Of a stretch of DNA of 64,000 nucleotides, positions 9,160 through 62,975 are shown in pieces. Source of the DNA: a virus; IMG/VR virus record IMGVR_UViG_3300010396_000010, positions 8,350-72,349 of that record. One strand, written 5' to 3'. A model generated the notes under the pieces. It was not told where the DNA came from. It did not search any database and saw nothing but the letters and a program-made list of their open reading frames with translations. The number at the start of each line of letters is the position of its first letter. Within the stretch, counting starts at the first letter, position 1. Both the position numbers and the translations under genes were made by a program.

Positions 9160-9794
9160 GGACCGAGATTAACGATGTACTCCAGTGCTTCTGCGTTGCC
9201 GATCACCTTGTAAGCATGATCGCCGCAATCCCAGCAATCAAAGCGCGCTAGCCATTTCTTTGTTTTCCATCCTGTGTGCTGCTTGGCTTGATCTCCTGTG
9301 AGATCCAGTTTGGGATTGTAGTAAAACAACGTCACTGTGTTATCTGTTGTTTCTTTACAATCCCAGCAGAAATGCCCTGCCCTTTCTTTGGCAGTCCAAG
9401 CATCCCCGTTTTGCAGTAACTTCATGTGTTCTTTCGCACTTGCAAAAGTTTTTGGCCTTCTTTTCGTGTTTTGTTCCTGCCTATCCAGACGGCCATGCTC
9501 AGGAAATAGCAGCCCCAATGCATCTGCATTGGGGAGCATACCTAGATGATAATCTTCACTTTCGTTGTAGCGTGCCGCTCCATCAAGTGCATCATCAAGG
9601 ACGTAGAAAACGCCGTTCATGATACGACCAAGGACACGATCAAAAACGACATAGCCGTTACTGATTGGCAATACGGCATGACGCGCCTTTAAGAAGTTTG
9701 GTGTACCAGCGTTCTCTTGTGCTGGTTTCCATCCGGTCATCCTTAGTACCGTCTCTGCTATCTGCAAGGATTTTGAATTGACTTGCTGTGTCAT
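9150..9794 (-). CDS. hypothetical protein with CxxC...CxxC zinc finger
   Basis: ATGA overlap with the integrase stop; CWDC motif twice. Confidence 0.6.
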   Translation of the reverse strand: MTQQVNSKSLQIAETVLRMTGWKPAQENAGTPNFLKARHAVLPISNGYVVFDRVLGRIMNGVFYVLDDALDGAARYNESEDYHLGMLPNADALGLLFPEHGRLDRQEQNTKRRPKTFASAKEHMKLLQNGDAWTAKERAGHFCWDCKETTDNTVTLFYYNPKLDLTGDQAKQHTGWKTKKWLARFDCWDCGDHAYKVIGNAEALEYIVNLGPWS

Positions 9795-11137
9795 GCTTCG
9801 TTCCCTTCTCTGAGATAAAGTGTTGCCTGGTTTTCGCCCTCTTGCGTCCACCGCTGCCAGAAGGTGTGCCAATCCTGCTGCATCAGTGCCGCGACGATGG
9901 CGTGGCAGTCAGCCTCAGAATCAGCATAGATGGCGATGGCACGCCTCAGTACTTCCCATTGCTTCTCGGTGAGCGAGGGGCAAGAAGCGGCAATGGCGAG
10001 GGGCGGCATCTCGCCACTAAGGATCTGCTGCATCACCACTGTTGCCGCCTGGTGCATGGCGGGCGTCGCGTGCGAGTAGAGGTCGAGCGTGACGGCGATA
10101 CTACTGTGTCCTAACATCTCGCTCACCAGTTTGGGGTGCATCCCCGCTTCGAGCAAGAGCGTGGCGGCAGTGTGGCGCATGTCGTGAAAGCGAATCTCCG
10201 GTATGCCCGCCCGCTTAATAGCAGGCTTGAAGTACCGGGTGGTTGCGCTTTCCGGGCCAACGGGCGTTCCTAGCGTCGTCGTGAAGACTAAGCCATGCTC
10301 GTTATGCCAGCGGTCGCCCATCGCCTCGGCTTCCTCTTGCTGCCGCTCACAATGGCGTTGTAAGGCGTCAATCGCCAACGAGGTCAGACAAACGGTATGC
10401 GTGGACGCATGCGTCTTGGGCTGCTTCATCGTGAGCTTGCCCTTGATGCGCTGCAAGTTGCCCCGCACTTGAATCCATCCCCGTTCCAAATCGACGGTTG
10501 ACCAGCGTAGACCAAAAAGTTCCCCTTCGCGCATGCCGGTTGAGAGTGCGAGAACAAACAAGGCTTCGTAACGGTCGCCCTTGATGACATCAAGAAACCG
10601 CCGCGCCTCATTGACGCTCCACGTTGTATGTTCCTTGCGGTCCTTGCGGGGTGCCTCAATCATGTCGGCGGGATTGCGTAGGAGCACGCCCTGCTTTACC
10701 GCTGCTTCAAGGGCGATGTGCAGGATGCGGTGAATATGATTCACTGTTGTTCCTGACAGCCCCTCTTTGAATCGCTGTGCATAGAGCTTTTGCAGATGCG
10801 CAGCGGTGAGTTTGCTTGGGGCAATGTCCATCAGTTCTTGGAAGTAGAGGCGAACACATTTGCGGTAGTTTTCCGCTGTTTTTCCTGGTCGGCTCTGTTC
10901 CTTGTTCGCCAGCCATACCTCAAAGAACTGCCGCAACGTGGTGAAGTCGTTACCGGGCATCATGCCCCGCTGGTGTTCCGCCTCAGCCAGCAGCGCCTTG
11001 ATCTTGGCCTGGACGCCAGCGCGTGTGTCATCCCGAACGGTTCTGCGTTTGCCGTCTGGCATCGACACGCGCCCCATCCAACGCCCATCGGGTTGTTTCG
11101 TGTAGGTGCCTTCGTTGTTGCCTCTGCGACCGGCCAT
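9791..11137 (-). CDS. int: tyrosine integrase
   Basis: N-terminal RRGNNEGT arm domain, TGMREGEL, RFHDMRH, LGHS, DLYSH. Confidence 0.97.
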   Translation of the reverse strand: MAGRRGNNEGTYTKQPDGRWMGRVSMPDGKRRTVRDDTRAGVQAKIKALLAEAEHQRGMMPGNDFTTLRQFFEVWLANKEQSRPGKTAENYRKCVRLYFQELMDIAPSKLTAAHLQKLYAQRFKEGLSGTTVNHIHRILHIALEAAVKQGVLLRNPADMIEAPRKDRKEHTTWSVNEARRFLDVIKGDRYEALFVLALSTGMREGELFGLRWSTVDLERGWIQVRGNLQRIKGKLTMKQPKTHASTHTVCLTSLAIDALQRHCERQQEEAEAMGDRWHNEHGLVFTTTLGTPVGPESATTRYFKPAIKRAGIPEIRFHDMRHTAATLLLEAGMHPKLVSEMLGHSSIAVTLDLYSHATPAMHQAATVVMQQILSGEMPPLAIAASCPSLTEKQWEVLRRAIAIYADSEADCHAIVAALMQQDWHTFWQRWTQEGENQATLYLREGNEA

Positions 11138-11396: not shown

Positions 11397-11448
11397 AGTA
11401 TGCCATAACGACTAATACTTGTCAATAGGACATGATATATGGTATGGT
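11397..11448. promoter_or_regulatory. overlapping divergent promoters (xis-int versus J-domain operon)
   Basis: minus: TTGACA-17-CATACT; plus: ACTAATAC-TTGTCA-18-TATGGT. Confidence 0.55.
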
Positions 11449-11469
11449 GTAGGCAGAAAGGATCAGGAC

Positions 11470-12036
11470 ATGCTCTTAACAAGGCTTGAAGCGGCTGCGG
11501 GTAAGCAGGGCGGATGGATCATCGAATGTGACAACCCTATGTGGCTTGCGCGATTCCTGCGATCATTGCCGCCTACCGATGCACGCCCTTTTAGCTTCGG
11601 TGGCGTGTGGTGGGTATCTGATGAGACGCTGGAAATGTTTGAATTTCGCTGCGATAACTTTGCGACGATGTGCCGCAGTGTTGGGCGCGAACCATCAGTG
11701 CGCCAGAAAGAGCGAGAGCGCAACCGCCAGTATTGGCAGGAGCGTAGGCGTGATCAGCAAGAGCGTGAAGAACACGAACGCCAGCAGCGCGAAGCAGAAG
11801 AACGGATACGCCAGCAGAAGCGCGAACGCCAGCAGCGCAAGCCCGCGCCACCTCCGCCACGCGGCGTGATGAATCCCTATAGACTGCTGGGCATCAAGTC
11901 AGGGGCGACGCTACCGGAAATCAAGAAAGCCTATCGCGCCCTCGCCCTAAAGCATCATCCCGATCATGGGGGCGACATTGAACTGATGAAGCGAATCAAC
12001 CTGGCCTACGAGAAACTGACGAAAGGACGAAGATGA
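11470..12036 (+). CDS. J-domain (DnaJ-type) protein
   Basis: C-terminal NPYRLLGI...IKKAYRALALKHHPDHGG with the HPD motif. Confidence 0.9.
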   Translation: MLLTRLEAAAGKQGGWIIECDNPMWLARFLRSLPPTDARPFSFGGVWWVSDETLEMFEFRCDNFATMCRSVGREPSVRQKERERNRQYWQERRRDQQEREEHERQQREAEERIRQQKRERQQRKPAPPPPRGVMNPYRLLGIKSGATLPEIKKAYRALALKHHPDHGGDIELMKRINLAYEKLTKGRR

Positions 12037-12560: not shown

Positions 12561-12796
12561 CCCCCAACCGTCGCGCCCTAGTGAGGCAAGGACGCCTTCG
12601 CCATGTCGAGTAGACTCATTGTCCATCGTGATCCAGAATCGTGCCTACAGCGCGTTACACGACTGCCCGTCCGTGTGCTGTGTAGGCAATATGCAGGAAT
12701 TACCCCAAAACGCTGTTGACAGTAGCCAACGAAAAGTGGTAAGATGTGTCTAAGAAACATTAGTAATCTTTGCATAAACGGCGCGAAAGGAGGCTA

Positions 12797-13774
12797 GTGG
12801 TGGATAGTGAACTGACAACTCATTCGCTTGATGACATGATCGAGCAATGGGTTAGGGCAAAGTTCCAAATAACCAAAAGCGAAAGAACGGCAAAGGCATA
12901 TATCGAAACACTGATACGGTTTCGCTCTTGGCTGCAACGCCATGATCTTGATTTGGATAGTCCAGCACAAGTTATTGTGCCAAAGGCTCTTGAATGGCTA
13001 GCGCAGTCACGGCATCCAAGTAAGAAGGAAGTTACCGCAGGTACATTCAATCAGCGTCGAGCCATTCTTTCCAGTTTCTACACCTACGCCATTCGTCAAG
13101 GCTACGCCATTGAAGTGAATCCAATGCTGCGCATCGATCCCATGCGTGGTGCTGCCCGTCGAGGAACGCAAGGTGTTTCAATTGAAACCGTCAGGCAAAA
13201 TCTTCTTGCCATCAATCAGTCAACATTGGTGGGTTTGCGTGACTTTGCCCTTATAGAATTTGCAGCTATGACGGGCAAACGCGCACATGAGTTGATCGCA
13301 CTCAACTTGGGCGATCTTCACGTTCAAAATGACGGCGTTCTCATTGCATGGGAAACACTGAAAGGTGGAGATAAGCAGGAGCGGTTATATGAGTACCCGC
13401 ACGCGGCTAACCTCCTGCGCTATCTCATGGTACAGTATGGCCCCGAATGGCCCTCGCTCCCGAAGGGTACTCCGGTTTGGTCGTCACAATCCTTCAATAC
13501 AGGAAAAGACGGCAAGCGCCTAACTCGCAATGGGTTGGCGTATATCTACGAACGCCGCATTGGAACGACGAAGGTTCATGACACGCGCCGCATATTCGCA
13601 CAAACAGCGTTTCGTGTGGGCGCATCAGCACCACAGGTTCAGCAGCTTATGGGGCATCGCACTCTTGCGGCAACACAACGCTATGCAGAGGCAGAACAAA
13701 CAGCCATCAACCCATTTGCTAACAAAATGGGAAAATTGCTCGGCTTAACTGCCGACGAACAGAAAGAGGATTAG
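12797..13774 (+). CDS. second tyrosine recombinase (XerC/D-like, no arm-binding domain)
   Basis: GKRAHEL, LKGG, HDTR, LMGH, TQRY catalytic set; AAGGAGG SD before GTG 12797; TTGACA-17-TAAGAT-like promoter near 12716. Confidence 0.9.
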   Translation: MVDSELTTHSLDDMIEQWVRAKFQITKSERTAKAYIETLIRFRSWLQRHDLDLDSPAQVIVPKALEWLAQSRHPSKKEVTAGTFNQRRAILSSFYTYAIRQGYAIEVNPMLRIDPMRGAARRGTQGVSIETVRQNLLAINQSTLVGLRDFALIEFAAMTGKRAHELIALNLGDLHVQNDGVLIAWETLKGGDKQERLYEYPHAANLLRYLMVQYGPEWPSLPKGTPVWSSQSFNTGKDGKRLTRNGLAYIYERRIGTTKVHDTRRIFAQTAFRVGASAPQVQQLMGHRTLAATQRYAEAEQTAINPFANKMGKLLGLTADEQKED

Positions 13775-13777
13775 GAC

Positions 13778-14623
13778 ATGAAAGTTATCAAATCGGGACT
13801 CATCGACTCTGAGGACACGCTTGTTCGACTTGGCATTATTGACTTCGGGCGTAACAATGATAAGTTATTTGATGGACCCCACAATGCGATTCGCTTGGTC
13901 AGCCTGTTTTGTGTGCAAACTATGTCATATACCGTGCTTGAACAAGACCTCGAACAATATGAAGCGCAACCGGGAATGCCAGATTGGCATCATGTAGGCG
14001 TTCATGAGGGTATCGGTCGCAGGTATTGGAATATGTTCAAGACTCATTTCCCTTCCAGCATTCTCAAATTTCATGATTCACCTGACTTCTCAGGAGAGTT
14101 GCGCGAACCTCATATGGATGTCGATTTTGCGGGAGATATAGGTACTGTTTCAGCAAGCGCATTTTTGGATAGTATCAGGCGAATGCTGCCCGGCGATCTA
14201 TGGATTTCCGTAGGCGACAAGACGCAAGTGATCTTGGAGGCGCATTTATCTCACCCACTGCTATCTCGAAGGTATTCAACCAATTTTCTTGCTGAAAATG
14301 ATCCCTTTCCTAATATGGCTAAGTCATGGAAGGATTTTGTCAATGACTATGGATACGATGTGAATTGGGGTGAGGAGGAATACGGGAAGATAAAGGATGC
14401 TTATCTTTCCCAAAGAGCGGATTTACGCAAGCGCATGAGAGCAGAAAACACCGATCCGTTTGCCATTCAAGCGGCAGATTTTGGGTTTTACTGGACGTTT
14501 ATGCGCCGACTAAAAGAAAACAGTGTGCAAGCTGCCGCCCCGAATAATCCGCTGCGTAGCGAACTCCAACAACTTCGCGCACGTATGGCAGAAATTGAAC
14601 GCCAACTAGCAGAGAAGGGCTAG
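13778..14623 (+). CDS. hypothetical protein
   Basis: 281-aa ORF with SD, lower GC than its surroundings. Confidence 0.65.
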   Translation: MKVIKSGLIDSEDTLVRLGIIDFGRNNDKLFDGPHNAIRLVSLFCVQTMSYTVLEQDLEQYEAQPGMPDWHHVGVHEGIGRRYWNMFKTHFPSSILKFHDSPDFSGELREPHMDVDFAGDIGTVSASAFLDSIRRMLPGDLWISVGDKTQVILEAHLSHPLLSRRYSTNFLAENDPFPNMAKSWKDFVNDYGYDVNWGEEEYGKIKDAYLSQRADLRKRMRAENTDPFAIQAADFGFYWTFMRRLKENSVQAAAPNNPLRSELQQLRARMAEIERQLAEKG

Positions 14624-14727
14624 GGCATTTTTCCAAGATTAGGGAATAGTGGGTGCTATGTCGGATACTTGACATAGCACCCTTTCCTTTGGCGGTGCGC
14701 GAAAAAGATAACGTGAAGGAGATGTAC

Positions 14728-14943
14728 ATGCAAAAGTGGGAATACCTCGTTATGACCGTTGGCCCGAACGATAAGTTGAATGTTCGGGCTATGGGTGAAA
14801 TGGGGGCTGATGGATGGGAACTCGCAGGGATAATGCCTAACGTGAAACCATTTCAACAATCAGCCGGAACGATCAGTATCGGATCTCAACTTGGCACTGA
14901 AAACAAACTGATCTTTAAGCGTCCGGTTCAAGAAGGGGAATAA
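14728..14943 (+). CDS. DUF4177-like protein
   Basis: MQKWEY...GADGWEL...LIFKRP signature. Confidence 0.8.
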   Translation: MQKWEYLVMTVGPNDKLNVRAMGEMGADGWELAGIMPNVKPFQQSAGTISIGSQLGTENKLIFKRPVQEGE

Positions 14944-14947
14944 ACAC

Positions 14948-14988
14948 AAAAGCGGAGGGCGGGATCAGGTGATCCCGCCCTCCGCTTT
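14948..14988. terminator. bidirectional intrinsic terminator
   Basis: AAAA-GCGGAGGGCGGGATCA-GG-TGATCCCGCCCTCCGC-TTT. Confidence 0.9.
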
Positions 14989-15104
14989 GCCGAGGCTCCA
15001 ACACACCCCACCTGCGCATGGTGGTTGCCTCTGCCGTGTGTCGGCGGCGCTGGCGCACCACACCTAGCTTATGCGATGCTCAACCGATGGGTGAATGGTA
15101 CCGG

Positions 15105-15178
15105 CGGGGCCAGTCGGACTTGCACCTACTCTATCACTCGTGGAAAAGCGACGTGCTACTCTTACACTATCTAGCCCC
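15105..15178 (-). tRNA. atypical tRNA-like element (UCC/Gly-like anticodon)
   Basis: GGGGCTA/TGGCCCC acceptor, GTGT/GCAC D-stem, TCGCT/AGTGA anticodon stem, GTAGG-TGCAAGT-CCGAC T-arm; several irregularities. Confidence 0.55.
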
Positions 15179-15334
15179 ATGTATGCCCCAGGCGCTATGT
15201 ACTCCCCTTCGCTGGCTTGTCACTATTCGCTAGTGCAACAACCGGTAGTCGCGTTCGGACTGCATGCCGGTCCTCGGAGAGCCGTTCGTCATCACCAGAA
15301 GGGCATACGTTCCAGTGATGCAGTAGGCACTTCC

Positions 15335-15363
15335 ATCATAGCATATCGCCTACATGTTGTCAA
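15335..15363 (-). promoter_or_regulatory. promoter of the ~380-nt RNA
   Basis: TTGACA-17-TATGAT with GATATG/extended -10. Confidence 0.75.
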
Positions 15364-15374
15364 CAACCTACACG

Positions 15375-15461
15375 AAAACGCCCACCCGCTCAACGTCTGC
15401 GCAGACCGGAGCGGATGGGCGTCTATCACAAGATGCAGCGGGAGACAAAACCTACTGCACG
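15375..15461 (-). ncRNA. predicted trans-acting antisense sRNA (~87 nt)
   Basis: Promoter, 5' hairpin with a UUUUGUCU loop, single-stranded UCUUGUGAUAG, 14-bp terminator stem plus UUUU; seeds complementary to five distant leaders. Confidence 0.75.
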
Positions 15462-15466
15462 TGTTC

Positions 15467-15495
15467 AGTGTCGCATAGACCAGCGCGTGCGTCAA
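15467..15495 (-). promoter_or_regulatory. promoter of the antisense sRNA
   Basis: TTGACG-17-GACACT with TG extension. Confidence 0.6.
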
Positions 15496-15513
15496 GCGCC
15501 ATAGACAGAATGC

Positions 15514-16818
15514 CTAGTTAAATTGGCTGGCGGCATATTGCAGCGCGAGGTCCAGCAGGAACCGATCCTGTGAAGGCTGCAAGATAGCGAGCTCCAGTTG
15601 CACGCTATCGAACTGGTAGGTGAGTCCGGCGATAGTGACGGTCTGATTGATCTGCGCCCCCGGCGAGGCGTCCCACACGTCCACATCCCATACCGCCTGA
15701 TCCCAAAGCGTATTTCCGGCATTGTGGTTGGGGTTCTCGATGCGGCAGGTTTGCCCCACCTGGATCGTTTCGATGTCGTAGCCCAGCCCGGAGGTGTCGC
15801 CCCGATTATCGACAATGGTGATCGTGCTGCGATATTGCACCACATCTTGCTCGGCCAGGGTGGCTTGCGCGTAGCGTGTGGCCGTCGCGGCGTCGATCAG
15901 GCGTGGCTCCACGATGACCAGCGTGCGCCGACCATAGATGCTCACATCCGCCGAGGTTGCCCGCGCCGTCACGCCCGTTCCCACCACATAGATATCATTC
16001 TTTAAGGTGGTGTAATCCTTCTCATATTGGGGCTGGTTGATGTGCTTGCCGACGATGAAGGTGTGCGTCGGTGTCGTCGCGGCCTGGGCGAAGGTGACGG
16101 TCTTGGTGGCGTGGTTGGTGCGCCAGAACCAATTTTGTGGCGCGATGGTGCGTACTGCCTCGAAGAACTCCGCGAGGCTTTGGTTGTGAAACTGCAACTG
16201 ATAGGTTGCGCCACTGCTGGACGGGTTGGCGGGATCGAGGGTAAGCGGATTGGGATACGGGTTTCCTGTCACGGGATCGTTATTGCCGAAGGGCCAGTTA
16301 AACATGGTCACTGGATCAACATAGGTGCCAGGGCTGCCCGCCGTGCCGAAGTTCTGCGTGCCGATGAATTTGACATCGCCCAACACGGTATCGAAGGGCG
16401 TGAGGGTGATCTGGATCGTCTCGGTGTTGGATTCATCAATGGAGGGCATGTATTTGTCGATATAGCCCTGGTAGACCAGCCGCCCCGCCGTGAGGGTGGC
16501 GTTGTCATAGATCCAGAACTGCACCACGTTCCCGGCTTGCACGGTGCCGCGCCCTCGGTCGTCCCCAGCCTCATCGAAGTTATCAAAGGCGCGGGGCAGG
16601 GTGACGGTGATCTGATTGGTGACGGCATTGACGGCGAACTTGGGGGCGGAGGTGCCGCTACTATTGCTCTGATCGCCCAAGAGCGATGCGTCGCGCCACA
16701 CATCGAGAAATTGCCCCGCCGCGTTATAGACCTTCACCACCTGCTGCTTGACGATCAAGCGTGGCGCAGGTGGCGTGGGAATCGTGACGAGGGGATAGAC
16801 CCCTAAGAGAATCGACAT
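15514..16818 (-). CDS. minor tail / baseplate hub (Tal-like) protein
   Basis: Follows Dit; LKNDIYVVG, SIYGRR, WDQAVWD motifs. Confidence 0.8.
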   Translation of the reverse strand: MSILLGVYPLVTIPTPPAPRLIVKQQVVKVYNAAGQFLDVWRDASLLGDQSNSSGTSAPKFAVNAVTNQITVTLPRAFDNFDEAGDDRGRGTVQAGNVVQFWIYDNATLTAGRLVYQGYIDKYMPSIDESNTETIQITLTPFDTVLGDVKFIGTQNFGTAGSPGTYVDPVTMFNWPFGNNDPVTGNPYPNPLTLDPANPSSSGATYQLQFHNQSLAEFFEAVRTIAPQNWFWRTNHATKTVTFAQAATTPTHTFIVGKHINQPQYEKDYTTLKNDIYVVGTGVTARATSADVSIYGRRTLVIVEPRLIDAATATRYAQATLAEQDVVQYRSTITIVDNRGDTSGLGYDIETIQVGQTCRIENPNHNAGNTLWDQAVWDVDVWDASPGAQINQTVTIAGLTYQFDSVQLELAILQPSQDRFLLDLALQYAASQFN

Positions 16819-37904: not shown

Positions 37905-39419
37905 CTACCAGTTCGCGGTGTGGAATACGCGGGTATCCTGATGGTCTTTCACCAACGCTAGCCGTTTTTCCAGACTGAGGAACGCCGCGCGTCCCGCCAT
38001 CGCCGTGATCGCGTCACCCACGCCGTCAGCCTGATCATCATGCCGACCATTGGGAATTTGAATCAGTTCGGTTTCATAGTCATAGATCCAGGGAGCGCCA
38101 CGCCGATGGTAGACGGACTTTGCCCGATAGTGCGCCGCCGTTGTTGCCTGGCGACTCTCTTTATCCCCATGCCGCTCTAGTTCGATGATGGGCAGTCCTA
38201 ACCGCCGCGCATACTGGATGAGGGTAAGCTGGTAGGCGACCTTCTCAATGCCCACCGCGTAAGGATGCCATCGCGTATATGCTGTGTTGATCTCGTCCGG
38301 TTGTTCAGGACCAGGGAGTTTCTTGCGAACGATATCCACCACGAAGAAGCGGCCTTGGTGTGAGGCCACCGTCGCAATGACGAAATAGTCCGCCTTGGTC
38401 TTGACACTTGCCGCAGGGTCCACCGCCTGAAACCAGCGACAGGCACGGAAACTGACCGTCTCCTCAACGCCACTACTGTTCGTGAAGGTGATGCATTCGC
38501 GCTGCTCATCGACTTCGGCATACTGGAACCACTCCCGCTTGAAGGTGTTGCCTTCTTCGCTGCCGGGGTTGCCCTGGTAGAGACAGAGGAAATCAATGGG
38601 GTCCAGATCCTTCCGAATCTCGCGCAGCGCGTCAATGCCCCACACATCCGGCCAGTAGGATTCTTCGTTATCCGCCTCGCCCGTAATGGCGGGGAACGTC
38701 ACGAGGTCAAATCCCATCTTTGCTAGTCGCGGCACCGCATCATCATAGTGCCAGCGGTTGCAGACAAAGATGATGCGCCCACCGGGTTTGAGGCGACTCT
38801 TGATCACGGTCATAAAACGCCGGATAAACCGCGCCCGCCACGTCGGACTCTCAATCTCGTTCGGGTCAAACGGGTCGTCCAGAATAATCAGGTCGGCGCG
38901 ACGCCCAAGAGCGCCACCCATGAAGCCCATGCTGGAATACTGCGGGTCTTTCGCGCCCTGGTGACTCCACCCATCCTTGTCAACTATCGGCCATTTGCCG
39001 CTATGATCCCGCCACTTGAAGTACAAGCCCCGACTGGACCAGCCACGTTCTTTGTCCGGCATCACATCAGGAAAGATTTCCTCATGCCGCCCGTTTTGCT
39101 CATACACCTGCTGCAACGCCGTCAAGTAGGCGACAGCTTTATCATCGTTGGCGTGCAGGTGTAGCACAATCCAGTCAGGGTGATTGCCAATAATCCACGC
39201 TGGGGCGATCTCCGAGATCCACGTGCTTTTGCCGCTGCCGGGTGGACATACCACCACCGATCCCTTATTCCACTCCCTTGGCGCGACGGCATTGATAATG
39301 CCCTGATGGTGTGGCGCTGGTCGCAGCCCACGTGTCAGGACGCCATAGATGGCAAGAGATTCCCTCCCCCGGAGGATTTCGAGGGGTTTGAGTGCAGTGG
39401 GATCATCCATGTATTTCAC
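37905..39419 (-). CDS. terL: terminase large subunit
   Basis: PPGSGKST, GRRADLIILDDP, RWHYDD, VDPA, HDDQAD. Confidence 0.95.
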   Translation of the reverse strand: MKYMDDPTALKPLEILRGRESLAIYGVLTRGLRPAPHHQGIINAVAPREWNKGSVVVCPPGSGKSTWISEIAPAWIIGNHPDWIVLHLHANDDKAVAYLTALQQVYEQNGRHEEIFPDVMPDKERGWSSRGLYFKWRDHSGKWPIVDKDGWSHQGAKDPQYSSMGFMGGALGRRADLIILDDPFDPNEIESPTWRARFIRRFMTVIKSRLKPGGRIIFVCNRWHYDDAVPRLAKMGFDLVTFPAITGEADNEESYWPDVWGIDALREIRKDLDPIDFLCLYQGNPGSEEGNTFKREWFQYAEVDEQRECITFTNSSGVEETVSFRACRWFQAVDPAASVKTKADYFVIATVASHQGRFFVVDIVRKKLPGPEQPDEINTAYTRWHPYAVGIEKVAYQLTLIQYARRLGLPIIELERHGDKESRQATTAAHYRAKSVYHRRGAPWIYDYETELIQIPNGRHDDQADGVGDAITAMAGRAAFLSLEKRLALVKDHQDTRVFHTANW

Positions 39420-40677: not shown

Positions 40678-40706
40678 TTGACATGGATACTCAGATGTGT
40701 GATACT
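40678..40706 (+). promoter_or_regulatory. promoter of the RNA-rich small-gene operon
   Basis: TTGACA-17-GATACT with GATGTG extension. Confidence 0.7.
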
Positions 40707-41020: not shown

Positions 41021-41049
41021 ATCACAAGAAAAGAAACGAGACAACGACC

Positions 41050-41220
41050 ATGTCAAAGGAACAACTGCTCAAGATCATTGCTCATGCACAAGCACAAATC
41101 GATGAGATGGAAGCAGAGGAATCACTGTACGAGTATGAGTACCGCGAAGAGCGCGCTTTGGATATGCGTATGGAAGCATACGCCTATTATAGCGGACTCA
41201 ATGACGACTACGATTATTAG
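41050..41220 (+). CDS. 56-aa acidic, Tyr-rich protein (not in the ORF track)
   Basis: MSKEQLLKIIAHAQAQIDEMEAEESLYEYEYREERALDMRMEAYAYYSGLNDDYDY, after motif copy 1. Confidence 0.75.
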   Translation: MSKEQLLKIIAHAQAQIDEMEAEESLYEYEYREERALDMRMEAYAYYSGLNDDYDY

Positions 41221-41284
41221 GCCGAAACCTAGGGGACTATACATCCCTGATGGTCTGCTGGTTATGCCAGCACTGAGGATGGCC
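41220..41284 (+). ncRNA. type II hammerhead ribozyme
   Basis: GGCC-GAAAC..GGUC^-UGCUGG/CCAGCA-CUGAGGA-U-GGCC; predicted cleavage after 41255. Confidence 0.85.
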
Positions 41285-41330
41285 GCTCTCACTGAGAGCT
41301 AGTATCGCAAGAAAAAAAAAGAGACAAACC

Positions 41331-41594
41331 ATGAACGTCTATCAGCAGACCTTGTACGACCGTGCAGCAGATGGCACTTTCCAACCCAGCGTAACGGAAT
41401 CCGGTGTCGCCTGTCAGTCGTGCGTACAAGACTGGATCAATGGCAGCAGTCAACAGCGTCGGCAAGATGATGGATCGCTCGTCTTGGTTGAGTGGCATCA
41501 TTACAATCTGATCTCCATCATCATCATCAACCAGCCAAACCAATACCTTGACGCATGCGAGACGTTGCACACTGCATCATGCGTGTGCTGCTAA
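41331..41594 (+). CDS. small Cys-containing hypothetical protein
   Basis: Follows motif copy 2. Confidence 0.65.
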   Translation: MNVYQQTLYDRAADGTFQPSVTESGVACQSCVQDWINGSSQQRRQDDGSLVLVEWHHYNLISIIIINQPNQYLDACETLHTASCVCC

Positions 41595-41633
41595 GACAGC
41601 ACACATCACAAGAAAGAAAAGAGACAAACCACC

Positions 41634-41843
41634 ATGAAAACCATCATGCTGCTGATCGTATCCATCATCCTGTTGTGCGCCATTGGCACCGCACACATGC
41701 ACACAGCAACCTACCCCAGCAACGTGTGTGCCAGCAATCAGCACATTGCCTCGTATGCACAGCCAACCACCGTGCGGGTACTGGTGCCAGGCAGCACCGA
41801 TCCCCAAGTGGTCGATATCCAGCAGTGCGTAGCCAACCACTAG
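41634..41843 (+). CDS. small secreted/membrane protein
   Basis: MKTIMLLIVSIILLCAIG signal-like N-terminus; follows motif copy 3. Confidence 0.65.
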   Translation: MKTIMLLIVSIILLCAIGTAHMHTATYPSNVCASNQHIASYAQPTTVRVLVPGSTDPQVVDIQQCVANH

Positions 41844-41940
41844 CCATAGCGCATGCCGGTACAGCCGTAGCCTTCGATGGCAGCATGCGTACCGATCCTC
41901 AGAGCGAGGATCTATCACAAGAGAAACGAGACAAGAAACA

Positions 41941-42231
41941 ATGATGCAAGCAAACAAGGCGTACCACTTCATCACGAGCGCGGGCGAAATGGGCATATAC
42001 AGTACCCGCAATCGTAACACGGCCATCATCCATGCCATCGTGCGCGATACTACCGCATATGACGATCTGGCTCGGTATGCATCGAGCGATTATCCAGTTT
42101 TCGCTCGCTGCGTGCGGGGGTACATCAACGATTTCCACGAGTCGCTATCCCCGATCTTGTATCAGCTTGCAACGATCCCCAATCTCTGCTGGCTGTATGA
42201 CATGCTCCGGCAGATGGCCGATATCGGATAG
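41941..42231 (+). CDS. hypothetical protein
   Basis: Follows motif copy 4. Confidence 0.65.
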   Translation: MMQANKAYHFITSAGEMGIYSTRNRNTAIIHAIVRDTTAYDDLARYASSDYPVFARCVRGYINDFHESLSPILYQLATIPNLCWLYDMLRQMADIG

Positions 42232-42239
42232 GGTGAGGA

Positions 42240-42299
42240 TGGGGGATATACTTCTCTAGAGAGGATATATATATCCTCTCTAGAGAAGTATATCCCCCA
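42240..42299. repeat. perfect 60-bp palindrome
   Basis: TGGGGGATATACTTCTCTAGAGAGGATATA|TATATCCTCTCTAGAGAAGTATATCCCCCA equals its own reverse complement. Confidence 0.97.
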
Positions 42300-42392: not shown

Positions 42393-42902
42393 TTATGCCT
42401 CATCATCGGATGGCGTGATCTGGCGTGGTGCTTCACTGCGAGACTGGATGATCTGCGCGTCGATCATGGCGATCTGATCGTCACTGATGATCCCGGCGCG
42501 TTGTGCTTCGGCGAGGATGTGGACGTGCAGGTGTTGCTGTGGCTGTGGTGGTGTCTGGTCCTGGGGACGTTGCTTGGCATAGGACTCAGGATGGCGGCGC
42601 TCTAAGAGCCACGCTGCGGCTTTCCAATCGGTGTCGGCTGCGGCTGTGACTTTGACCAGTAGGGCATGAGCGCCAAGGGCTTGCGCACGTTGGAGAGACG
42701 CAACTAATGCAACATATGGTTGCTCTCCTGACTCACCTTTCCGTAGCCATTGCCGTAGCGTCTCATGCGAGATACCGCAAGCCTCAGCAGCAAGGTGGTA
42801 CGTCATGCCGTCAGCAATGAGCGCGACCAGTTGCACCATGAGGCTATCGGTGAGTTTGGTAGGTCGCCCTCCAGCGTAGCGCGTGATATCGCTCTCACTC
42901 AT
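42393..42902 (-). CDS. terS: putative terminase small subunit
   Basis: GRPTKLT, HTH AAEACGISHETLRQW, DWKAAAWLLERR. Confidence 0.75.
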   Translation of the reverse strand: MSESDITRYAGGRPTKLTDSLMVQLVALIADGMTYHLAAEACGISHETLRQWLRKGESGEQPYVALVASLQRAQALGAHALLVKVTAAADTDWKAAAWLLERRHPESYAKQRPQDQTPPQPQQHLHVHILAEAQRAGIISDDQIAMIDAQIIQSRSEAPRQITPSDDEA

Positions 42903-42917: not shown

Positions 42918-42954
42918 ACTAATACTTGACATGAGTAGCAGGATATGCGAGAAT
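42918..42954 (+). promoter_or_regulatory. phage promoter family member
   Basis: ACTAATAC-TTGACA-17(GATATG)-GAGAAT. Confidence 0.7.
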
Positions 42955-42986
42955 GAAGTATCACAAGTGAATCGAGACAAGAGACA

Positions 42987-43628
42987 ATGCAAGTTACTGT
43001 TACCGTGCAAGTGCCTGACAAGCACCGCACACGTGTTCGTCTGTTGCGCATGCAGGTGCGACCCGGCGCAGTGGCGCTAGGGAAGGCGCACAGCCGGGCA
43101 TTGCCAGCAACGCAAGAGATGCCGGTTATCGCGTCACCACTGGACGATCCTAATTTCATGGGCGGAGTGATGGCGTTACTGTATACGCCAGATCCCACAC
43201 CCGGTCCCAAGCCACGTAAGGCATCGTGTGATATTGATGCGAAGCTCCTGGTTGAACTGTGCGATTTCCGTGAGACAGCGCAACGCAACGCCGATCAAGA
43301 GCAACAATTTGCCCAGGATCGCGCCGATGAACGCAGCACAGAAAACAAACTTCGGCAACGTCACGGCAAGGAATTGATTCCCGCTGATCCGGAAATGGAG
43401 CAAGAATCGGCTGGTAAGATTGCCGGATACTTGCTCGTTGCGGATGCGATGCAAGAAGTTATCACGGCATGTAAACGCGGTTTCGATGATTATCTCGCAT
43501 GCTTACCAGCGCAAGTGGAATATCTAGAAAGCAACATGACCAATCAGAACGACCCTTTTAGCAGCATGCGCGACAAAATTATTGCCGCCGAAGTCTCTGA
43601 AATCACGCGCCGATGGATGGGGGAATAA
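42987..43628 (+). CDS. hypothetical protein
   Basis: Follows motif copy 5; first gene of the parB-like unit. Confidence 0.7.
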   Translation: MQVTVTVQVPDKHRTRVRLLRMQVRPGAVALGKAHSRALPATQEMPVIASPLDDPNFMGGVMALLYTPDPTPGPKPRKASCDIDAKLLVELCDFRETAQRNADQEQQFAQDRADERSTENKLRQRHGKELIPADPEMEQESAGKIAGYLLVADAMQEVITACKRGFDDYLACLPAQVEYLESNMTNQNDPFSSMRDKIIAAEVSEITRRWMGE

Positions 43629-43632
43629 GACG

Positions 43633-44619
43633 ATGGCAACGCCAGTTACCTACGATCTCCGTGTTGTCGATATCGCCCTTGTGGATGACAACCCGTTTCA
43701 GCCGCGCAAGAGTTACGACGAAAAGTATATCTCTGAATTAGGTGCTTCATTCCGAGAAGAAGCAGCAGCACAAGGGCAAGACGATCCCGGCTATGGCGTG
43801 AAACAACCGCCTCCGGCCCGCGAAGTCGATGGTCGTTACCAGTTGGCAGCGGGCCACTGCCGGAAGCGCGGTGTGCTGAAAGCAGATGGTAAAGTGTTCC
43901 GGCTGATTGTTGAGGATCTCTCCGATGCCGATATGCGCCGTATCGCTATGATTGAAAACATGCAGCGTCAGGACATGAGCCATTCCGATACCGCAACCGG
44001 CATTATGGATTATCTCAGAAGTCAAGGCTGGAAAAAGGGTGGTATTGAACCAACAAATGAACGCGCCATCAAAAAGACGGCTAAGGATCTTGGCAAGCCA
44101 TGCAGTGAGATTCGCGATTATATCGCGTTCTCTGCCTTGCCAGGCATGGTGCAAGGCATGGTCGATGCCGGACATCTCTCATTCCGACTGGTGGGCGATC
44201 TGGCAAAACTGCCGTTCGCTCAGAGAATGAAAACCTTGCGCATGATCACCACTGGCGGTAAAACAGTGGCAGAAGCAGAAGTTTTGATTAAAGCGGCGAT
44301 CAAGGAAATGGACCGGCAAGAGCAGATGCAACGCTTGGGCATGGCGGGCGATCAAGGCGCACTATTCGATGTGCCTGAGACGACGCCAGAGACGCGCCAG
44401 GCACAGGCAAAGTATGCCGCCGATATGCAGATGGTCGCAACCATCCTTGCCAAGTATGGCGATGCTGAGGGGGATGCGCTCACAGCCGCCATGCCGCTCT
44501 TAAACTTAGACATCGAACGGGAACGCATCAGGATTATCATTGCCACCGCGAAGCGGATGGACAGCACGCTCATGGCCGCGCAGTCACAACGCGATATCGC
44601 AACCATCATGGGAAAGTGA
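43633..44619 (+). CDS. ParB/Spo0J-like protein
   Basis: NPFQPRK, YQLAAGHCRKRG, MIENMQRQDM, HTH. Confidence 0.9.
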   Translation: MATPVTYDLRVVDIALVDDNPFQPRKSYDEKYISELGASFREEAAAQGQDDPGYGVKQPPPAREVDGRYQLAAGHCRKRGVLKADGKVFRLIVEDLSDADMRRIAMIENMQRQDMSHSDTATGIMDYLRSQGWKKGGIEPTNERAIKKTAKDLGKPCSEIRDYIAFSALPGMVQGMVDAGHLSFRLVGDLAKLPFAQRMKTLRMITTGGKTVAEAEVLIKAAIKEMDRQEQMQRLGMAGDQGALFDVPETTPETRQAQAKYAADMQMVATILAKYGDAEGDALTAAMPLLNLDIERERIRIIIATAKRMDSTLMAAQSQRDIATIMGK

Positions 44620-57156: not shown

Positions 57157-57738
57157 ATGGAAGCGATCAAAATCGAGGAAACAACCTACCACGAAACGCA
57201 CGTGATTAATTCCTGCTTCAGCTATGGTGATGCGAGTGTAACGACCTTCACTATGGGCAAAATCCGCGAACACAACGAACGACGGGAATATGCAACGCTG
57301 CGCATTTACACCGAAGACGGCGCGCGAACCATTCAGCTTGAAGCTGATCAAATGGATGAAGTTTCTCGCCTCTGGCAAGGCGAGAAAGAGTCACACGGCC
57401 TCTCCGAACTGCGCGAGATGTATGACGCATTGGTTGCTGAGCATCAAAGCCTGATACAGTCACATGACAACCTTGGCATATCCTTTGGTGTGCTTGCCGA
57501 GGATTACGAAAGCAAGTCCACTGATCTTGCCAAGCACTACAACATCAACAATCAGGCGTTGCTCGATGAAAACGAGGCGTTAAAAAAGCGCATCGAGCAG
57601 TTACAAAACGTGGCCATTCAAGCGTACTTGGACATCGAGAGCGGTCATGCACAGAGGTCATACGACGCACTGGTGGCAATGCATCCCGACGAAAACGATC
57701 CCTATGGCCTGAATGAAGTCGCCAGCACCACAGCATAA
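57157..57738 (+). CDS. coiled-coil hypothetical protein
   Basis: ORF with purine-rich leader. Confidence 0.6.
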   Translation: MEAIKIEETTYHETHVINSCFSYGDASVTTFTMGKIREHNERREYATLRIYTEDGARTIQLEADQMDEVSRLWQGEKESHGLSELREMYDALVAEHQSLIQSHDNLGISFGVLAEDYESKSTDLAKHYNINNQALLDENEALKKRIEQLQNVAIQAYLDIESGHAQRSYDALVAMHPDENDPYGLNEVASTTA

Positions 57739-57802
57739 CCCCCCATTCCTCCAACACCGGGCGCGTCCGGCGAGATGCGCCCCACACATGAAAGGACCAG
57801 CC

Positions 57803-58657
57803 GTGACAGAAGAAACCTTATCACCATCCCTCATTCGCCAGTTGATGCGCCCCGGCGCACTGGCTGAGGACACTGCGCCACCCAACCTGGACGACGCGCA
57901 ACAACGCGCCCTACACACTGCCCTTGCCGCACTCGATGCGCAGGATCGGGAGATCCTCCAACTGCGCTACGATGCGAATTGCACCATTGAGGAGATCGCC
58001 GCGCATCTCCTGACCAGCCCGCAGATCGTGGAGCATCGAGAACAGGACGCCCTCCACCAGTTGCGGCAATATCTACCGCCAACGCGAGAGGACATCGCAG
58101 CATCACCCACGCGGCGCTATGTGCCAGCACCAGCACAGAAGAAACCCGTTCCACCAACCACAGGCAAAGGAAGGGCAATCAGTGAGAAACAATTTGCTGC
58201 GTATATGGCGGCAAACCCTGATGCCACCATACGGGGAACCTCTGAGGATCTCGGTATTTCTTCTGCTACCGTGACCGTGTATCGCAAGGCATGGCATGAA
58301 CACCAAGCGCGACACGTTCCCGCTGCACCAGCACCACAACCCGTTCCGTTGCCACCTGCGCCCGCGCCTGTGCCAGCACCACCAAGCCAACCGGAACCGG
58401 AGCCGCCCACGCCCACCAATGCAGCCTACACGCGCACGCTCTACGAGGAACAAGTCTATCAAGCGCGACTGTGGATGGAAATGCTGGAACGCCAGTGGCG
58501 CGAGGCAAAGGAAAACGCAGAGGAGGCAGTCGAATACGCCGATACCGTGCAACAGCGGTATCTCCAAGCCAAAGCCAACTACGAACGCGCACAGAAGATC
58601 GCCCGCGCTCACTATGCGATGTTGCACGGCCAAGTTGTTGAAGAATTGGAGGGATAA
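57803..58657 (+). CDS. sigma-70 region-4-like HTH protein with second HTH and coiled coil
   Basis: ALAALDAQDREILQLRY...TIEEIAAHL; ATIRGTSEDLGISSATV. Confidence 0.75.
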   Translation: MTEETLSPSLIRQLMRPGALAEDTAPPNLDDAQQRALHTALAALDAQDREILQLRYDANCTIEEIAAHLLTSPQIVEHREQDALHQLRQYLPPTREDIAASPTRRYVPAPAQKKPVPPTTGKGRAISEKQFAAYMAANPDATIRGTSEDLGISSATVTVYRKAWHEHQARHVPAAPAPQPVPLPPAPAPVPAPPSQPEPEPPTPTNAAYTRTLYEEQVYQARLWMEMLERQWREAKENAEEAVEYADTVQQRYLQAKANYERAQKIARAHYAMLHGQVVEELEG

Positions 58658-62719: not shown

Positions 62720-62960
62720 CTCAGATACCCCATAGCTAAAAGCTAGGGGCTTGTGAAAGCGAGCCTGGATCTGACCAGTCTCAGTCCTGAAAGGGGCTAT
62801 GTTAGGGGCGAATACAACGATAGGCACCGTTGGGTGGCACCTCAGCCTGACGCTCTGCGGCCAACAGTTAAACAGATAGACGGGGTGCGAGTCAGTGCTG
62901 GTGGCAAACAAACCGCCTCATAACCTTGACGAGGGGAACCTTACCTGGGCAACCAGAGAT
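62720..62960 (+). ncRNA. omegaRNA scaffold (HEARO-like)
   Basis: TCAGATACCCC..CTAAAAGCTAGGGGCTTG..GACCAG.CTCAG..ATAGGCACC..CTCTGCGG..GTTAAACAG..GACGAGGGGAAC directly upstream of iscB. Confidence 0.88.
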
Positions 62961-62975
62961 TCTTAGGAGTTGGCA

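What the first reader, a model, noticed from the sequence alone, without database searches (positions are those of the whole stretch)
15375..15461. Candidate two-seed antisense sRNA controlling five distant phage genes
Seen: minus-strand unit TTGACG-17-GACACT, then UGCAG-uagguuuugucucccg-CUGCA-UCUUGUGAUAG, then a 14-bp stem and UUUU. Seed a' (UUGUCUC, largely in the loop) and seed b' (CUUGUGAU, unpaired) are 9 nt apart. They are the reverse complement of ATCACAAG-N6-9-GAGACAA just before ATGs at 41050, 41331, 41634, 41941 and 42987. The single variant target base (ATCGCAAG) keeps a GU pair, and two targets extend to GAGACAAACC against GGUUUUGUCUC. The leader of 45056 (GAGACGATG) could pair with seed a' alone. 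Known analogues are the bipartite P1/P7 C4 and P4 CI immunity RNAs, but I recognise no sequence similarity and those act on nearby targets. Inference: an RNA-based immunity or multi-target antitoxin system silencing early/toxic genes and the parB-like unit.
Basis: partly seen in the sequence, partly recalled or inferred. Interest (0 to 1): 0.9.

Follow-up and report, generated by a model that had tools for sequence, protein, structure and literature searches.

The report
Phage antisense RNA matching six gene leaders
A soil phage, probably of Ktedonobacteria, appears to encode a small RNA just after its tail genes whose two exposed segments are complementary to a leader shared by six phage genes, so one RNA could silence them together.

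Summary
ATC[A/G]CAAG-N6-9-GAGACAA occurs 7 times in the 72,349-bp phage genome, all on the + strand (chance expectation 7.5e-4; 0 matches in 300 simulated genomes). Six copies end 3-6 nt before an ATG, where other genes carry a Shine-Dalgarno. One of these lies outside the window and heads the replication module.

The seventh copy (15425-15448) has no start codon. It sits in a minus-strand unit directly after the tail-gene stop:
- promoter TTGACG-14-TGc-GACACT;
- hairpin presenting UUUUGUCU in its loop;
- unpaired UCUUGUGAUAG;
- long terminator hairpin plus UUUU.

A Ktedonobacterales MAG phage (tail protein 74-76% identical) keeps the same unit at the same place. It has an 11/12 promoter, both seeds identical, 3 of 6 outer stem pairs changed compensatorily and an unrelated terminator. 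It also has at least four such leaders.

An accessibility-aware cofold ranks the six leaders 1, 2, 3, 4, 5 and 7 of 609 candidate start regions.

Best reading (about 0.6): a trans-acting, two-seed antisense sRNA that blocks translation initiation, working like P1 c4 but not a family member. No expression data exist, the seeds never vary, and an "immunity" or "antitoxin" role is not shown.

The parts
15467..15495 (-). Predicted promoter of the sRNA: TTGACG (15495-15490), 17-nt spacer ending in TGc, GACACT (15472-15467). It starts about 20 nt after the tail-gene stop (15514-15516).
   Evidence: Read. Not reported by the consensus scan because the -10 matches only 3 of 6. The homologous position in L157 is TTGACA-18-TACAAT, 11 of 12. 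-35 and -10 align.
15433..15460 (-). Hairpin 1: 6-7 bp outer stem, 2-bp GG/CC inner stem, 8-nt apical loop UUUUGUCU. Seed a' UUGUCUC is 15448-15442.
   Evidence: MFE and centroid folds agree. The same architecture appears in L157. 3 of 6 outer pairs are compensatory, 1 is changed on one side, and 16 of 16 cells are paired.
15423..15432 (-). Linker carrying seed b' (CUUGUGAU, 15432-15425; UCUUGUGAUAG with flanks). The MFE fold leaves its first part (CUUGU) unpaired and pairs GA with the terminator base.
   Evidence: UCUUGUGAU is identical in L157.
15375..15422 (-). Intrinsic-terminator-like composite hairpin (14-bp arms plus an inner 4-bp stem) followed by UUUU. It would also end read-through from the late (tail) operon.
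   Evidence: Not listed by the terminator scan, whose loop limit is 8 nt. L157 has an unrelated hairpin plus UUUU at the same place.
15514..16818 (-). Last gene of the late operon (434-aa tail protein). No terminator lies between its stop and the sRNA, so late transcripts would carry the sRNA as a 3' UTR.
   Evidence: Weak Pfam hit Prophage_tail, below the curated cut-off. Relatives found.
41021..41052 (+). Target leader 1: 5-bp hairpin, CTATCACAAGA, A-rich spacer, GAGACAA, 5 nt, ATG 41050 (56-aa ORFan).
   Evidence: cofold ddG -12.8, rank 5 of 609.
41304..41333 (+). Target leader 2: 6-bp hairpin, TATCGCAAGA (G-U variant), A9 spacer, GAGACAAA, ATG 41331 (87-aa ORFan).
   Evidence: ddG -12.0, rank 7 of 609.
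41605..41636 (+). Target leader 3: 8-bp hairpin, ATCACAAGA, spacer, GAGACAAA, ATG 41634 (69 aa, hydrophobic N-terminus).
   Evidence: ddG -14.5, tied for ranks 2-3 of 609 with the out-of-window leader.
41914..41943 (+). Target leader 4: 7-bp hairpin, TCTATCACAAGA, spacer, GAGACAAGA, ATG 41941 (96-aa ORFan).
   Evidence: ddG -15.9, rank 1 of 609.
42926..42989 (+). Promoter TTGACA-17-GAGAAT (42926-42954), then target leader 5 at the predicted 5' end of the mRNA: TATCACAAG, spacer, GAGACAAGAGACA, ATG 42987. The 213-aa ORFan is followed by a ParB-like gene (43582-44619).
   Evidence: ddG -13.3, rank 4 of 609. The homologous gene in the MAG has the same leader.
40678..40706 (+). Promoter-like site TTGACA-17-GATACT (TG-extended) that would drive the four small target genes 41050-42231.

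Best explanation
A roughly 87-nt RNA is transcribed from the minus strand (about 15461 to 15375), from its own promoter just after the last tail gene. It is probably also present as the 3' end of late-operon transcripts, because no terminator lies in between.

The RNA presents two short antisense segments. Seed a' sits in the 8-nt loop of a 5' hairpin. Seed b' sits in the linker before the terminator hairpin; the fold leaves its first part unpaired.

The two seeds pair with a shared leader cassette: (hairpin)-[CT]ATCACAAGA - purine-rich spacer - GAGACAA - 3-6 nt - ATG. The cassette precedes six phage genes in at least three transcription units:
- four small ORFans at 41050-42231;
- the first gene of the ParB-like operon at 42987;
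- the small ORF that heads the replication module (O-like initiator, DnaC-like loader), outside the window.

Box a occupies the place of the Shine-Dalgarno sequence. Pairing should therefore clamp the leader and block 30S binding, giving translational repression, possibly followed by decay of the mRNA.

Shown here: the non-chance complementarity, the anatomy, and its conservation in one relative. Inferred: that the RNA is made, that it pairs in vivo, that the effect is repression, and when it acts (prophage immunity versus late shut-off of early genes).
For: 1. Motif counts: 7 on the + strand, 0 on the - strand, chance expectation 7.5e-4, 0 matches in 300 simulated genomes.

2. Six copies end 3-6 nt before an ATG. 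Late genes carry AGGAGG-type Shine-Dalgarno sequences at that position.

3. The seventh copy is different. No start codon follows it, its spacer is GC-rich and forms half of a hairpin, no + strand promoter was found in 14400-15700, and the only promoter-like site reported there is on the minus strand.

4. The fold exposes the seeds. Seed a' is in the loop. The first part of seed b' (CUUGU) is unpaired, and GA pairs with the terminator base. MFE -47.5, z -5.7.

5. Relative L157 is a Ktedonobacterales MAG with a tail protein 74-76% identical. At the same place after the tail-gene stop it has TTGACA-18-TACAAT (11/12). It also has hairpin GCGGGG-cAGGUUUUGUCUCCCa-CCCCGC, then UCUUGUGAU, then an unrelated terminator. 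All 23 seed and loop positions are identical against a diverged background. 3 of 6 outer stem pairs are compensatory, 1 is changed on one side, 16 of 16 cells are paired, and there are 0 compensatory pairs in six slid controls.

6. The same MAG holds 4 CACAAG-N4-10-GAGACAA leaders before ATGs (control pattern 0). One precedes the homologue of the 42987 gene. The scan turned up a fifth, variant leader.

7. Cofold ddG of the sRNA against 609 candidate start regions: the six leaders rank 1, 2, 3, 4, 5 and 7 (-12.0 to -15.9; mean -3.3, sd 2.4). In the MAG loci the motif leaders score -13.6 to -15.2 among 166 start regions (mean -4.8, sd 3.2).

8. The seeds are absent from the 16S rRNA of 3 Ktedonobacteria genomes, even as 6-mers, so the leader is not an rRNA-pairing enhancer.

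9. The leader is not a general host motif. There were 28 matches in 26 of 169 class genomes against 15 control matches, almost all in unrelated contexts.
Against: - There is no transcript evidence. No listed run holding the stretch is on record as RNA, and no contig of the two other runs covers the sRNA.
- The window's -10 (GACACT) matches 3 of 6 positions and fails the scan's rule. The U-tract is only 4 U. The L157 terminator is weak.
- Only two genomes carry the unit, and in both the seeds and target boxes are the same. There is therefore no seed-target covariation.
- Stem covariation is strand-neutral. With two sequences, 60 of 500 shuffles reach the observed values.
- In L157, hairpin 1 read on the opposite strand is itself terminator-like. 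That could explain why the stem is maintained.
- A hybridisation scan that ignores accessibility did not single out the leaders. After the perfect self-antisense, GC-rich windows at -37 to -42 kcal/mol filled the printed top of the list.
- More distant tail-protein relatives (40-64% identical: L116, L165, L166, G033) lack both the unit and the motif.
Confidence: 0.6

Rival explanations
1. The leader cassette is recognised by a protein, either an RNA-binding translational regulator or a DNA-binding operator protein. On this reading the seventh copy at 15425 is one more binding site (decoy, titration site or roadblock) and not the template of an antisense RNA.
For: All seven copies are the same + strand sequence. 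The 42960 copy lies immediately downstream of a -10 box, a classical operator position. Three of four MAG leaders lie downstream of -10-like boxes. The phage encodes HTH and ParB-like proteins next to target 5.
Against: - The motif is asymmetric, strictly strand-specific (7:0), and fixed 3-6 nt from the ATG. That fits an RNA-level signal, not a dsDNA operator.
- Five of the seven copies are intercistronic or far from any predicted promoter.
- The seventh copy alone has its spacer built into a hairpin, kept by compensatory changes, and is flanked by a minus-strand promoter and terminator in both phages.
- No + strand promoter feeds it.
Confidence: 0.15
2. The element is only the structured 3' UTR and terminator of the late operon. 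The antisense segments act, if at all, only as part of late mRNAs, to shut off early genes late in infection. There would be no independent sRNA promoter and no role in a prophage.
For: The unit starts about 20 nt after the tail-gene stop with no terminator in between, in both phages. The window's -10 is weak.
Against: L157 has an 11/12 sigma-70-type promoter at the aligned position. The window version has a 5/6 -35 box, a 17-nt spacer and a TGn-extended -10. This rival is a variant of the main explanation rather than an alternative: the pairing mechanism is the same.
Confidence: 0.15
3. The seventh copy is a non-functional relic of a duplicated or recombined leader cassette that happens to lie between a stop codon and a terminator.
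For: The leader cassette has clearly been duplicated many times in this phage.
Against: A relic would not keep 23 of 23 seed and loop positions while neighbouring positions diverge, the stem changes compensatorily and the terminator is replaced. Nor would it sit at the same place with a promoter in a phage whose tail protein is only about 75% identical.
Confidence: 0.07

Closest known systems
c4 antisense RNA of phages P1 and P7 (immI)
   Same: It is a small phage RNA whose short complementary segments, presented in loops, pair with boxes in the target mRNA around the ribosome-binding site and block translation. I saw review passages on this in PMC12197685. The two-box a'/b' detail is recalled from Citron and Schuster 1990, which I did not see here.
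   Different: c4 is encoded in the same operon just upstream of its single target (icd/ant) and is processed from that transcript (recalled). Here the RNA has its own predicted promoter. It lies 25.6-27.5 kb from five targets and about 19.5 kb from the sixth, on the other strand, and matches six leaders in at least three transcription units. There is no Rfam hit to any family at the site, even at E<=10 and none in L157 at E<=1. No antirepressor-like target was recognised.
sar RNA of phage P22
   Same: It is a phage antisense RNA that pairs with the translation initiation region of a regulatory gene (ant) and lowers its synthesis. I saw review passages in PMC12197685.
   Different: As I recall, sar is transcribed opposite to its own target region and is fully complementary to it, although the review's table lists it as 'trans'. 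It has a single target. The present RNA has two short seeds and distant, multiple targets.
CI RNA of satellite phage P4, and the related RNAs of N15-type phages
   Same: It is an RNA-based immunity factor with short complementary boxes (seqB against seqA/seqC). This is recalled and was not seen here.
   Different: The P4 RNA acts on the nascent leader of the operon that encodes it and causes premature transcription termination. It is cut out of that transcript. Here the boxes flank the start codon of distant genes, which points to control of translation.
Trans-acting phage sRNAs such as VpdS of vibriophage VP882
   Same: It is a phage-encoded sRNA that changes the levels of several phage and host mRNAs in trans. 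I saw review passages in PMC12197685.
   Different: VpdS is Hfq-dependent and acts in a proteobacterium, and no shared leader cassette is described in the passages I saw. Here the regulon is defined by a repeated, portable leader, and the host is probably a Chloroflexota member in which no sRNA chaperone is known to me.
3'UTR-derived sRNAs, for example CisR acting on CTX-phi cep mRNA
   Same: The sRNA lies directly after a stop codon and shares the mRNA's terminator. For PMC13250501 I saw only the search listing and the start of the abstract.
   Different: CisR is a host 3'UTR RNA acting on a phage gene. Here the phage's own late operon would deliver the RNA, and an internal promoter is also predicted.

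Membership tests
C4 antisense RNA family (P1/P7 c4, as curated in Rfam) | Sequence and structure match to the curated covariance model | tested here: not met
   Rfam found nothing at the site, either at gathering score over the whole window or at E<=10 in 14400-15700. There was also none in L157 at E<=1.
C4 antisense RNA family (P1/P7 c4, as curated in Rfam) | Two short antisense segments that pair with two boxes of the target, one at the ribosome-binding site | tested here: met
   Box b pairs over 9-12 bp. Box a pairs over 7-10 bp and ends 3-6 nt before the ATG, in six leaders.
C4 antisense RNA family (P1/P7 c4, as curated in Rfam) | Encoded in and processed from the same transcript as its target (icd/ant), directly upstream of it. 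This definition is recalled. | tested here: not met
   The targets lie 19-27 kb away on the opposite strand. A separate promoter is predicted. No Ant- or KilA-like target was found.
Trans-encoded base-pairing sRNA (generic class) | Own promoter and intrinsic terminator bounding a short non-coding unit | tested here: inconclusive
   The promoter is predicted only: weak in the window and 11/12 in L157. A terminator-like hairpin plus UUUU is present. No ORF fits the 87 nt. There are no RNA data.
Trans-encoded base-pairing sRNA (generic class) | Conserved accessible seed, with variable but structure-preserving stems | tested here: met
   This rests on two genomes only. The loop GGUUUUGUCUCC and UCUUGUGAU are identical, and 3 of 6 outer stem pairs are compensatory.
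Trans-encoded base-pairing sRNA (generic class) | Demonstrated expression and target regulation | not testable with these tools
   No listed run holding the stretch is on record as RNA, and the host is not cultured to my knowledge.
Type I toxin-antitoxin system | A small hydrophobic toxin peptide with an antisense RNA encoded overlapping or next to it | tested here: not met
   The RNA is not adjacent to any target. Only 1 of 6 target proteins has a hydrophobic N-terminus, and it is 69 aa with a long polar tail. There were no family hits.
3'UTR-derived sRNA | Lies between a stop codon and the mRNA's own terminator | tested here: met
   The stop is at 15514-15516 and the terminator at 15422-15375, with no terminator in between. 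Processing was not testable.

The most novel reading that the evidence does not exclude
The phage runs a post-transcriptional regulon through a portable leader cassette. One two-seed RNA is delivered both from its own promoter and as the tail of every late transcript. It is the master switch that silences replication, the ParB-like operon and a block of accessory genes. On this reading it provides RNA-only immunity and/or the early-to-late switch in a Chloroflexota phage for which no CI-type repressor was recognised among the proteins I scanned. The adjacent promoter-driven RNA of about 380 nt could be its partner or sponge.
Probability: 0.25. Interest if true: 0.8.

Novelty: new variant of a known kind. 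Interest (0 to 1): 0.62.

Why it matters
Phage antisense regulators known in detail (c4, sar, OOP, P4 CI) each control one neighbouring gene or operon. Here a single RNA would control six dispersed genes, including the heads of the replication and ParB-like modules, through a repeated leader. That is a regulon design known from bacterial sRNAs but not, to my knowledge, described as a phage's own developmental control.

It would also be a first worked example of sRNA regulation in a phage of Ktedonobacteria (Chloroflexota). A full-text search for 'Ktedonobacteria' plus 'phage' returned 34 papers, and none of the 10 listed concerns phage RNAs (listing only).

The system is compact and easy to test with reporters and compensatory mutations.

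Tried and rejected
- RNA evidence. The look-up of sequencing runs listed 3 runs, and no holder is on record as RNA. Read laying on 14600-16600 showed the following. X1 is the likely source assembly. X2's two near-identical 151-nt pieces lie in the tail gene only. X3 has a roughly 90% relative over 15161-15353 but nothing on the sRNA. This says nothing about expression.
- Leader pattern in IMG/VR. At least 115 loci had one match each, so these are chance hits and gave no relatives.
- sRNA pattern in IMG/VR. The 3 hits fall in one family of 37%-GC contigs in what look like coding regions, so I treat them as chance. A relaxed pattern gave 5 hits, about as many as my own rough estimate for chance. 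L214 and L215 have a hairpin with the same UUUUGUCU loop and a terminator, but in an unrelated context. I left these as a note.
- Searches for relatives:
  - 213-aa target-5 protein and ParB-like protein in IMG/VR: none.
  - Portal protein: only relatives of at most 32% identity.
  - 213-aa protein in 169 class genomes: only G001.
  - Tail protein in 169 class genomes: G001 and G033.
  - Metagenome scan with the tail alignment: 5 loci at 40-51% identity, none with the unit or motif.
  - The G033 contig (63 kb, 66% GC) has neither the motif nor the anti-motif.
- Exact-seed sRNA pattern in 169 class genomes: only G001.
- RNAduplex-type scan without accessibility: uninformative, because GC-rich spurious hybrids dominate.
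- Idea that the leader pairs with 16S rRNA: rejected.
- Idea that the neighbouring 380-nt RNA is a sponge. A 9-nt complementarity exists, but the cofold ddG of the 5' window is only -4.4 and the best window is -9.0. Not significant.
- blastn of the region against the phage and plasmid collections: no match. DNA search of 14940-15470 in 169 class genomes: one 35-nt hit at E 5e-4.
- A covariance model was not built. MAFFT put the gap inside the 3' stem arm, and the hairpin alone is too short for a genome-scale search.
- My by-eye label 'DUF4177-like' for the gene at 14728-14943 was not confirmed by Pfam and is dropped.
- Supplementary Table S1 of the review PMC12197685 lists 38 phage sRNAs without a described function. 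I could not see it, and it might hold similar cases.

Full report
What the record is.
The window is bases 8350-72349 of a single 72,349-bp contig, flagged as a virus record, with 56% G+C.
- It carries a long minus-strand late operon from about 40502 down to 15514. This includes a Mu-type portal, a large terminase and a tail protein.
- It has two tyrosine recombinases, a ParB-like gene, a protein with sigma-70 region 4, and a replication module outside the window.
- The closest relative I found is an 11-kb contig binned in a Ktedonobacterales MAG (L157; tail protein 74-76% identical). The host is therefore probably a member of the Ktedonobacteria. This is an inference from one binned contig.

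The observation.
Read on the minus strand, the tail gene stops at 15514-15516. After it come, in order:
- TTGACG (15495-15490), a 17-nt spacer ending in TGc, and GACACT (15472-15467);
- GUGCAG-ua-GG-UUUUGUCU-CC-cg-CUGCAU (15460-15433);
- CUUGUGAUAG;
- a composite hairpin with 14-bp arms (15422-15378), and UUUU to 15375.

ViennaRNA folds the 90 nt into exactly this shape (MFE equals centroid, -47.5 kcal/mol, z -5.7).

A whole-genome regular-expression scan adds a sixth at genome 4241-4262, outside the window, with its ATG at 4267.

The motif ATC[A/G]CAAG-N6-9-GAGACAA occurs 7 times on the + strand and never on the minus strand. It occurred 0 times in 300 first-order Markov genomes, and the analytic expectation is 7.5e-4. 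The 'antisense' locus is therefore formally a seventh + strand copy of the leader. The real question is which strand of that copy is used.

Why the seventh copy is different.
- The six leaders end 3-6 nt before an ATG and have purine-rich, unstructured spacers. Four of the six are preceded by a short hairpin.
- Late genes carry AGGAGG-type Shine-Dalgarno sequences 6-9 nt before their starts, so box a (GAGACAA) sits at the Shine-Dalgarno position.
- The seventh copy is followed by no start codon, and its spacer is GC-rich and forms the 3' arm of hairpin 1.
- No + strand promoter-like site was found in 14400-15700. It lies between a minus-strand promoter-like site and a minus-strand terminator.
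- A soil-metagenome relative of the neighbouring 15161-15353 stretch carries two separate 1-nt indels. This argues against the 127-aa + strand ORF 15095-15478 that would cover the site.

Comparative evidence.
In L157, oriented with the tail gene on +, the tail-gene stop is followed by:
- TTGACA-18-TACAAT (11 of 12);
- GCGGGG-ca-GG-UUUUGUCU-CC-ca-CCCCGC;
- guuUCUUGUGAUgaa;
- an unrelated hairpin with UUUU.

The alignment shows conserved -35 and -10 boxes and 14 of 14 loop positions plus 9 of 9 box b' positions. Nothing after that is conserved.

On the gap-free hairpin alignment, 3 of 6 outer pairs are changed on both sides, 1 on one side, and 2 are unchanged. All 16 of 16 cells pair, and the six slid controls give 0 compensatory pairs. 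With only two rows, however, 60 of 500 shuffles reach the same values.

The same MAG has 4 exact CACAAG-N4-12-GAGACAA sites (reversed-pattern control 0). Each lies just before an ATG. Three follow a -10-like box and a 5' hairpin, and one precedes the homologue of the 42987 gene. The scan turned up a fifth, variant leader.

So the pair 'sRNA unit plus multi-copy leader' is kept in two phages that have diverged by about 25% at the protein level.

Limits of this evidence:
- The seeds and boxes are unchanged between the two phages, so there is no seed-target covariation.
- Stem covariation cannot tell the strand.
- Hairpin 1 of L157 read on the other strand looks like a terminator for the convergent integrase gene.
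- More distant relatives lack both the unit and the motif (L116, L165, L166, G033:C643).
- The exact-seed pattern occurs in 1 of 169 genomes of the class.

Interaction scan.
A plain duplex scan without accessibility was uninformative, because GC-rich windows outscore everything except the self-antisense.

I then computed a cofold ddG (dimer MFE minus the two monomer MFEs) of the 87-nt RNA against the -45 to +12 region of 609 candidate ORF starts, covering all six frames and ORFs of at least 45 aa. The six leaders rank 1, 2, 3, 4, 5 and 7, at -12.0 to -15.9 kcal/mol against a mean of -3.3 and sd of 2.4. The 45056 leader, which matches seed a' only, scores -10.2 and ranks 13.

The same calculation in the MAG loci puts the motif leaders at -13.6 to -15.2 among 166 starts (mean -4.8, sd 3.2).

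These ranks partly restate the motif finding. They do show that the seeds remain favourable once intramolecular structure is paid for.

Alternatives examined.
- rRNA-pairing enhancer: rejected. The 16S rRNAs of three Ktedonobacteria genomes, including the MAG, have a canonical anti-Shine-Dalgarno tail and contain none of the seeds, even as 6-mers.
- General host motif: rejected. There were 28 matches against 15 control matches over 169 genomes, in unrelated contexts.
- dsDNA operator or RNA-binding protein site: not excluded. It fits poorly with the strict strand bias, the fixed distance to the ATG, the intercistronic positions, and the special structure and flanks of the seventh copy.
- Relic copy: fits poorly with the conservation pattern.
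- Pure 3' UTR of the late operon: compatible with the same pairing mechanism, and it may coexist with the internal promoter.

Mechanism proposed.
The RNA is made from its own promoter. Because no terminator precedes it, it is also carried at the 3' end of late transcripts. The loop of hairpin 1 (a') would contact GAGACAA at the ribosome-binding site. The linker (b') would pair with [CT]ATCACAAGA 6-9 nt upstream. Together they clamp the purine-rich leader and exclude the 30S subunit.

The targets are:
- four ORFans in a block with its own promoter (40678-40706);
- the first gene of the ParB-like operon, whose leader starts at the predicted +1 of promoter 42926-42954;
- the 79-aa ORF that overlaps the start of the O-like replication initiator.

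None of the six proteins matches a Pfam or PHROG family. Whether the RNA serves prophage immunity or late shut-off of early genes cannot be decided from sequence.

Comparison with what is known.
By function it is closest to c4 of P1/P7. I saw review passages on c4 in PMC12197685. The a'/b' detail is recalled. It is not a member of that family:
- there is no Rfam hit at the site, even at E<=10;
- it is not encoded in its target operon;
- there are six distant targets;
- no antirepressor-like target was recognised.

The features of P22 sar and lambda OOP come from the review passages, and those of P4 CI are recalled. As far as those sources go, each controls a single gene or operon close to where the RNA is encoded. 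VpdS of VP882 is a trans-acting phage sRNA with several targets, but it has no shared leader cassette in the passages I saw.

I therefore rate this a new variant of a known kind. It is well supported as a sequence feature and unproven as an expressed regulator.

Noticed in passing
window 14949-15363 (-): Directly after the sRNA terminator lies a near-consensus promoter (TTGACA-17-TGc-TATGAT, 11/12). It is followed by about 340-380 nt without a convincing ORF, ending at an 18-bp terminator shared with the convergent + strand gene. Fold z is -3.25. There is no Rfam family; the only hit is a sub-threshold tRNA-like match at 15107-15176 (18.5 bits). A soil contig is about 90% identical over 15161-15353 with two 1-nt indels, which suggests it is non-coding. 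The unit is absent from L157 and its function is unknown.
   Followed up: partly
window 15451-15459 (-) and 15315-15323 (-): The 5' arm of sRNA hairpin 1 (UGCAGUAGG) is complementary to the first bases of the neighbouring long RNA (CCUACUGCA). The cofold gain is small (-4.4), so this may be chance. A degenerate leader-like site (GUGACAAG-N9-GGGAGUAC) inside that RNA gives -9.0.
   Followed up: partly
window 62720-62944 (+) and 62970-63998 (+): A HEARO RNA (Rfam RF02033, 117 bits against a gathering score of 83) lies upstream of an HNH-endonuclease ORF (phrog_2214, E 2e-112) that runs off the window end. I recall this as the IscB-type pairing of guide RNA and nuclease, here inside a phage genome.
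   Followed up: no
window 42241-42298: A 58-nt near-perfect palindrome (GGGGGATATACTTCTCTAGAGAGGATATA / TATATCCTCTCTAGAGAAGTATATCCCCC) lies between the four small target genes and the convergent HTH gene. It could be a bidirectional terminator or a protein-binding site.
   Followed up: no
window 42393-42902 (-): An HTH protein matches small terminase subunits (phrog_4102, E 3e-26). It is separated from the large terminase (37905-39419) by the oppositely oriented block of four small target genes, as if that block had been inserted into the packaging region.
   Followed up: no
window 9791-11137 (-) and 12770-13774 (+): Two tyrosine recombinase genes lie within 4 kb, next to a DnaJ-domain protein (11419-12036).
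   Followed up: no
window 57713-58657 (+): A 314-aa protein has sigma-70 region 4 (Pfam E 6e-10). It is a candidate phage sigma factor for late transcription.
   Followed up: no
L214 2110-2215 (-) and L215 (IMG/VR contigs, about 51% GC): An element with the same GG-UUUUGUCU-CC hairpin loop, a different downstream single-stranded segment (UUGUUCUGUUGUG) and a good terminator sits after a small gene of an unrelated phage. It is either chance or a distant cousin with a changed second seed. No targets are visible on the 4.4-kb contigs.
   Followed up: partly
L158, L160, L161 (MAG G001 contigs C374, C731): In the MAG phage three leaders share a nearly identical 5' module. It consists of a -10-like box and hairpin GAGUGUC-gaaa-GACACUC directly before the CACAAG box, suggesting a mobile promoter-leader cassette.
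   Followed up: partly
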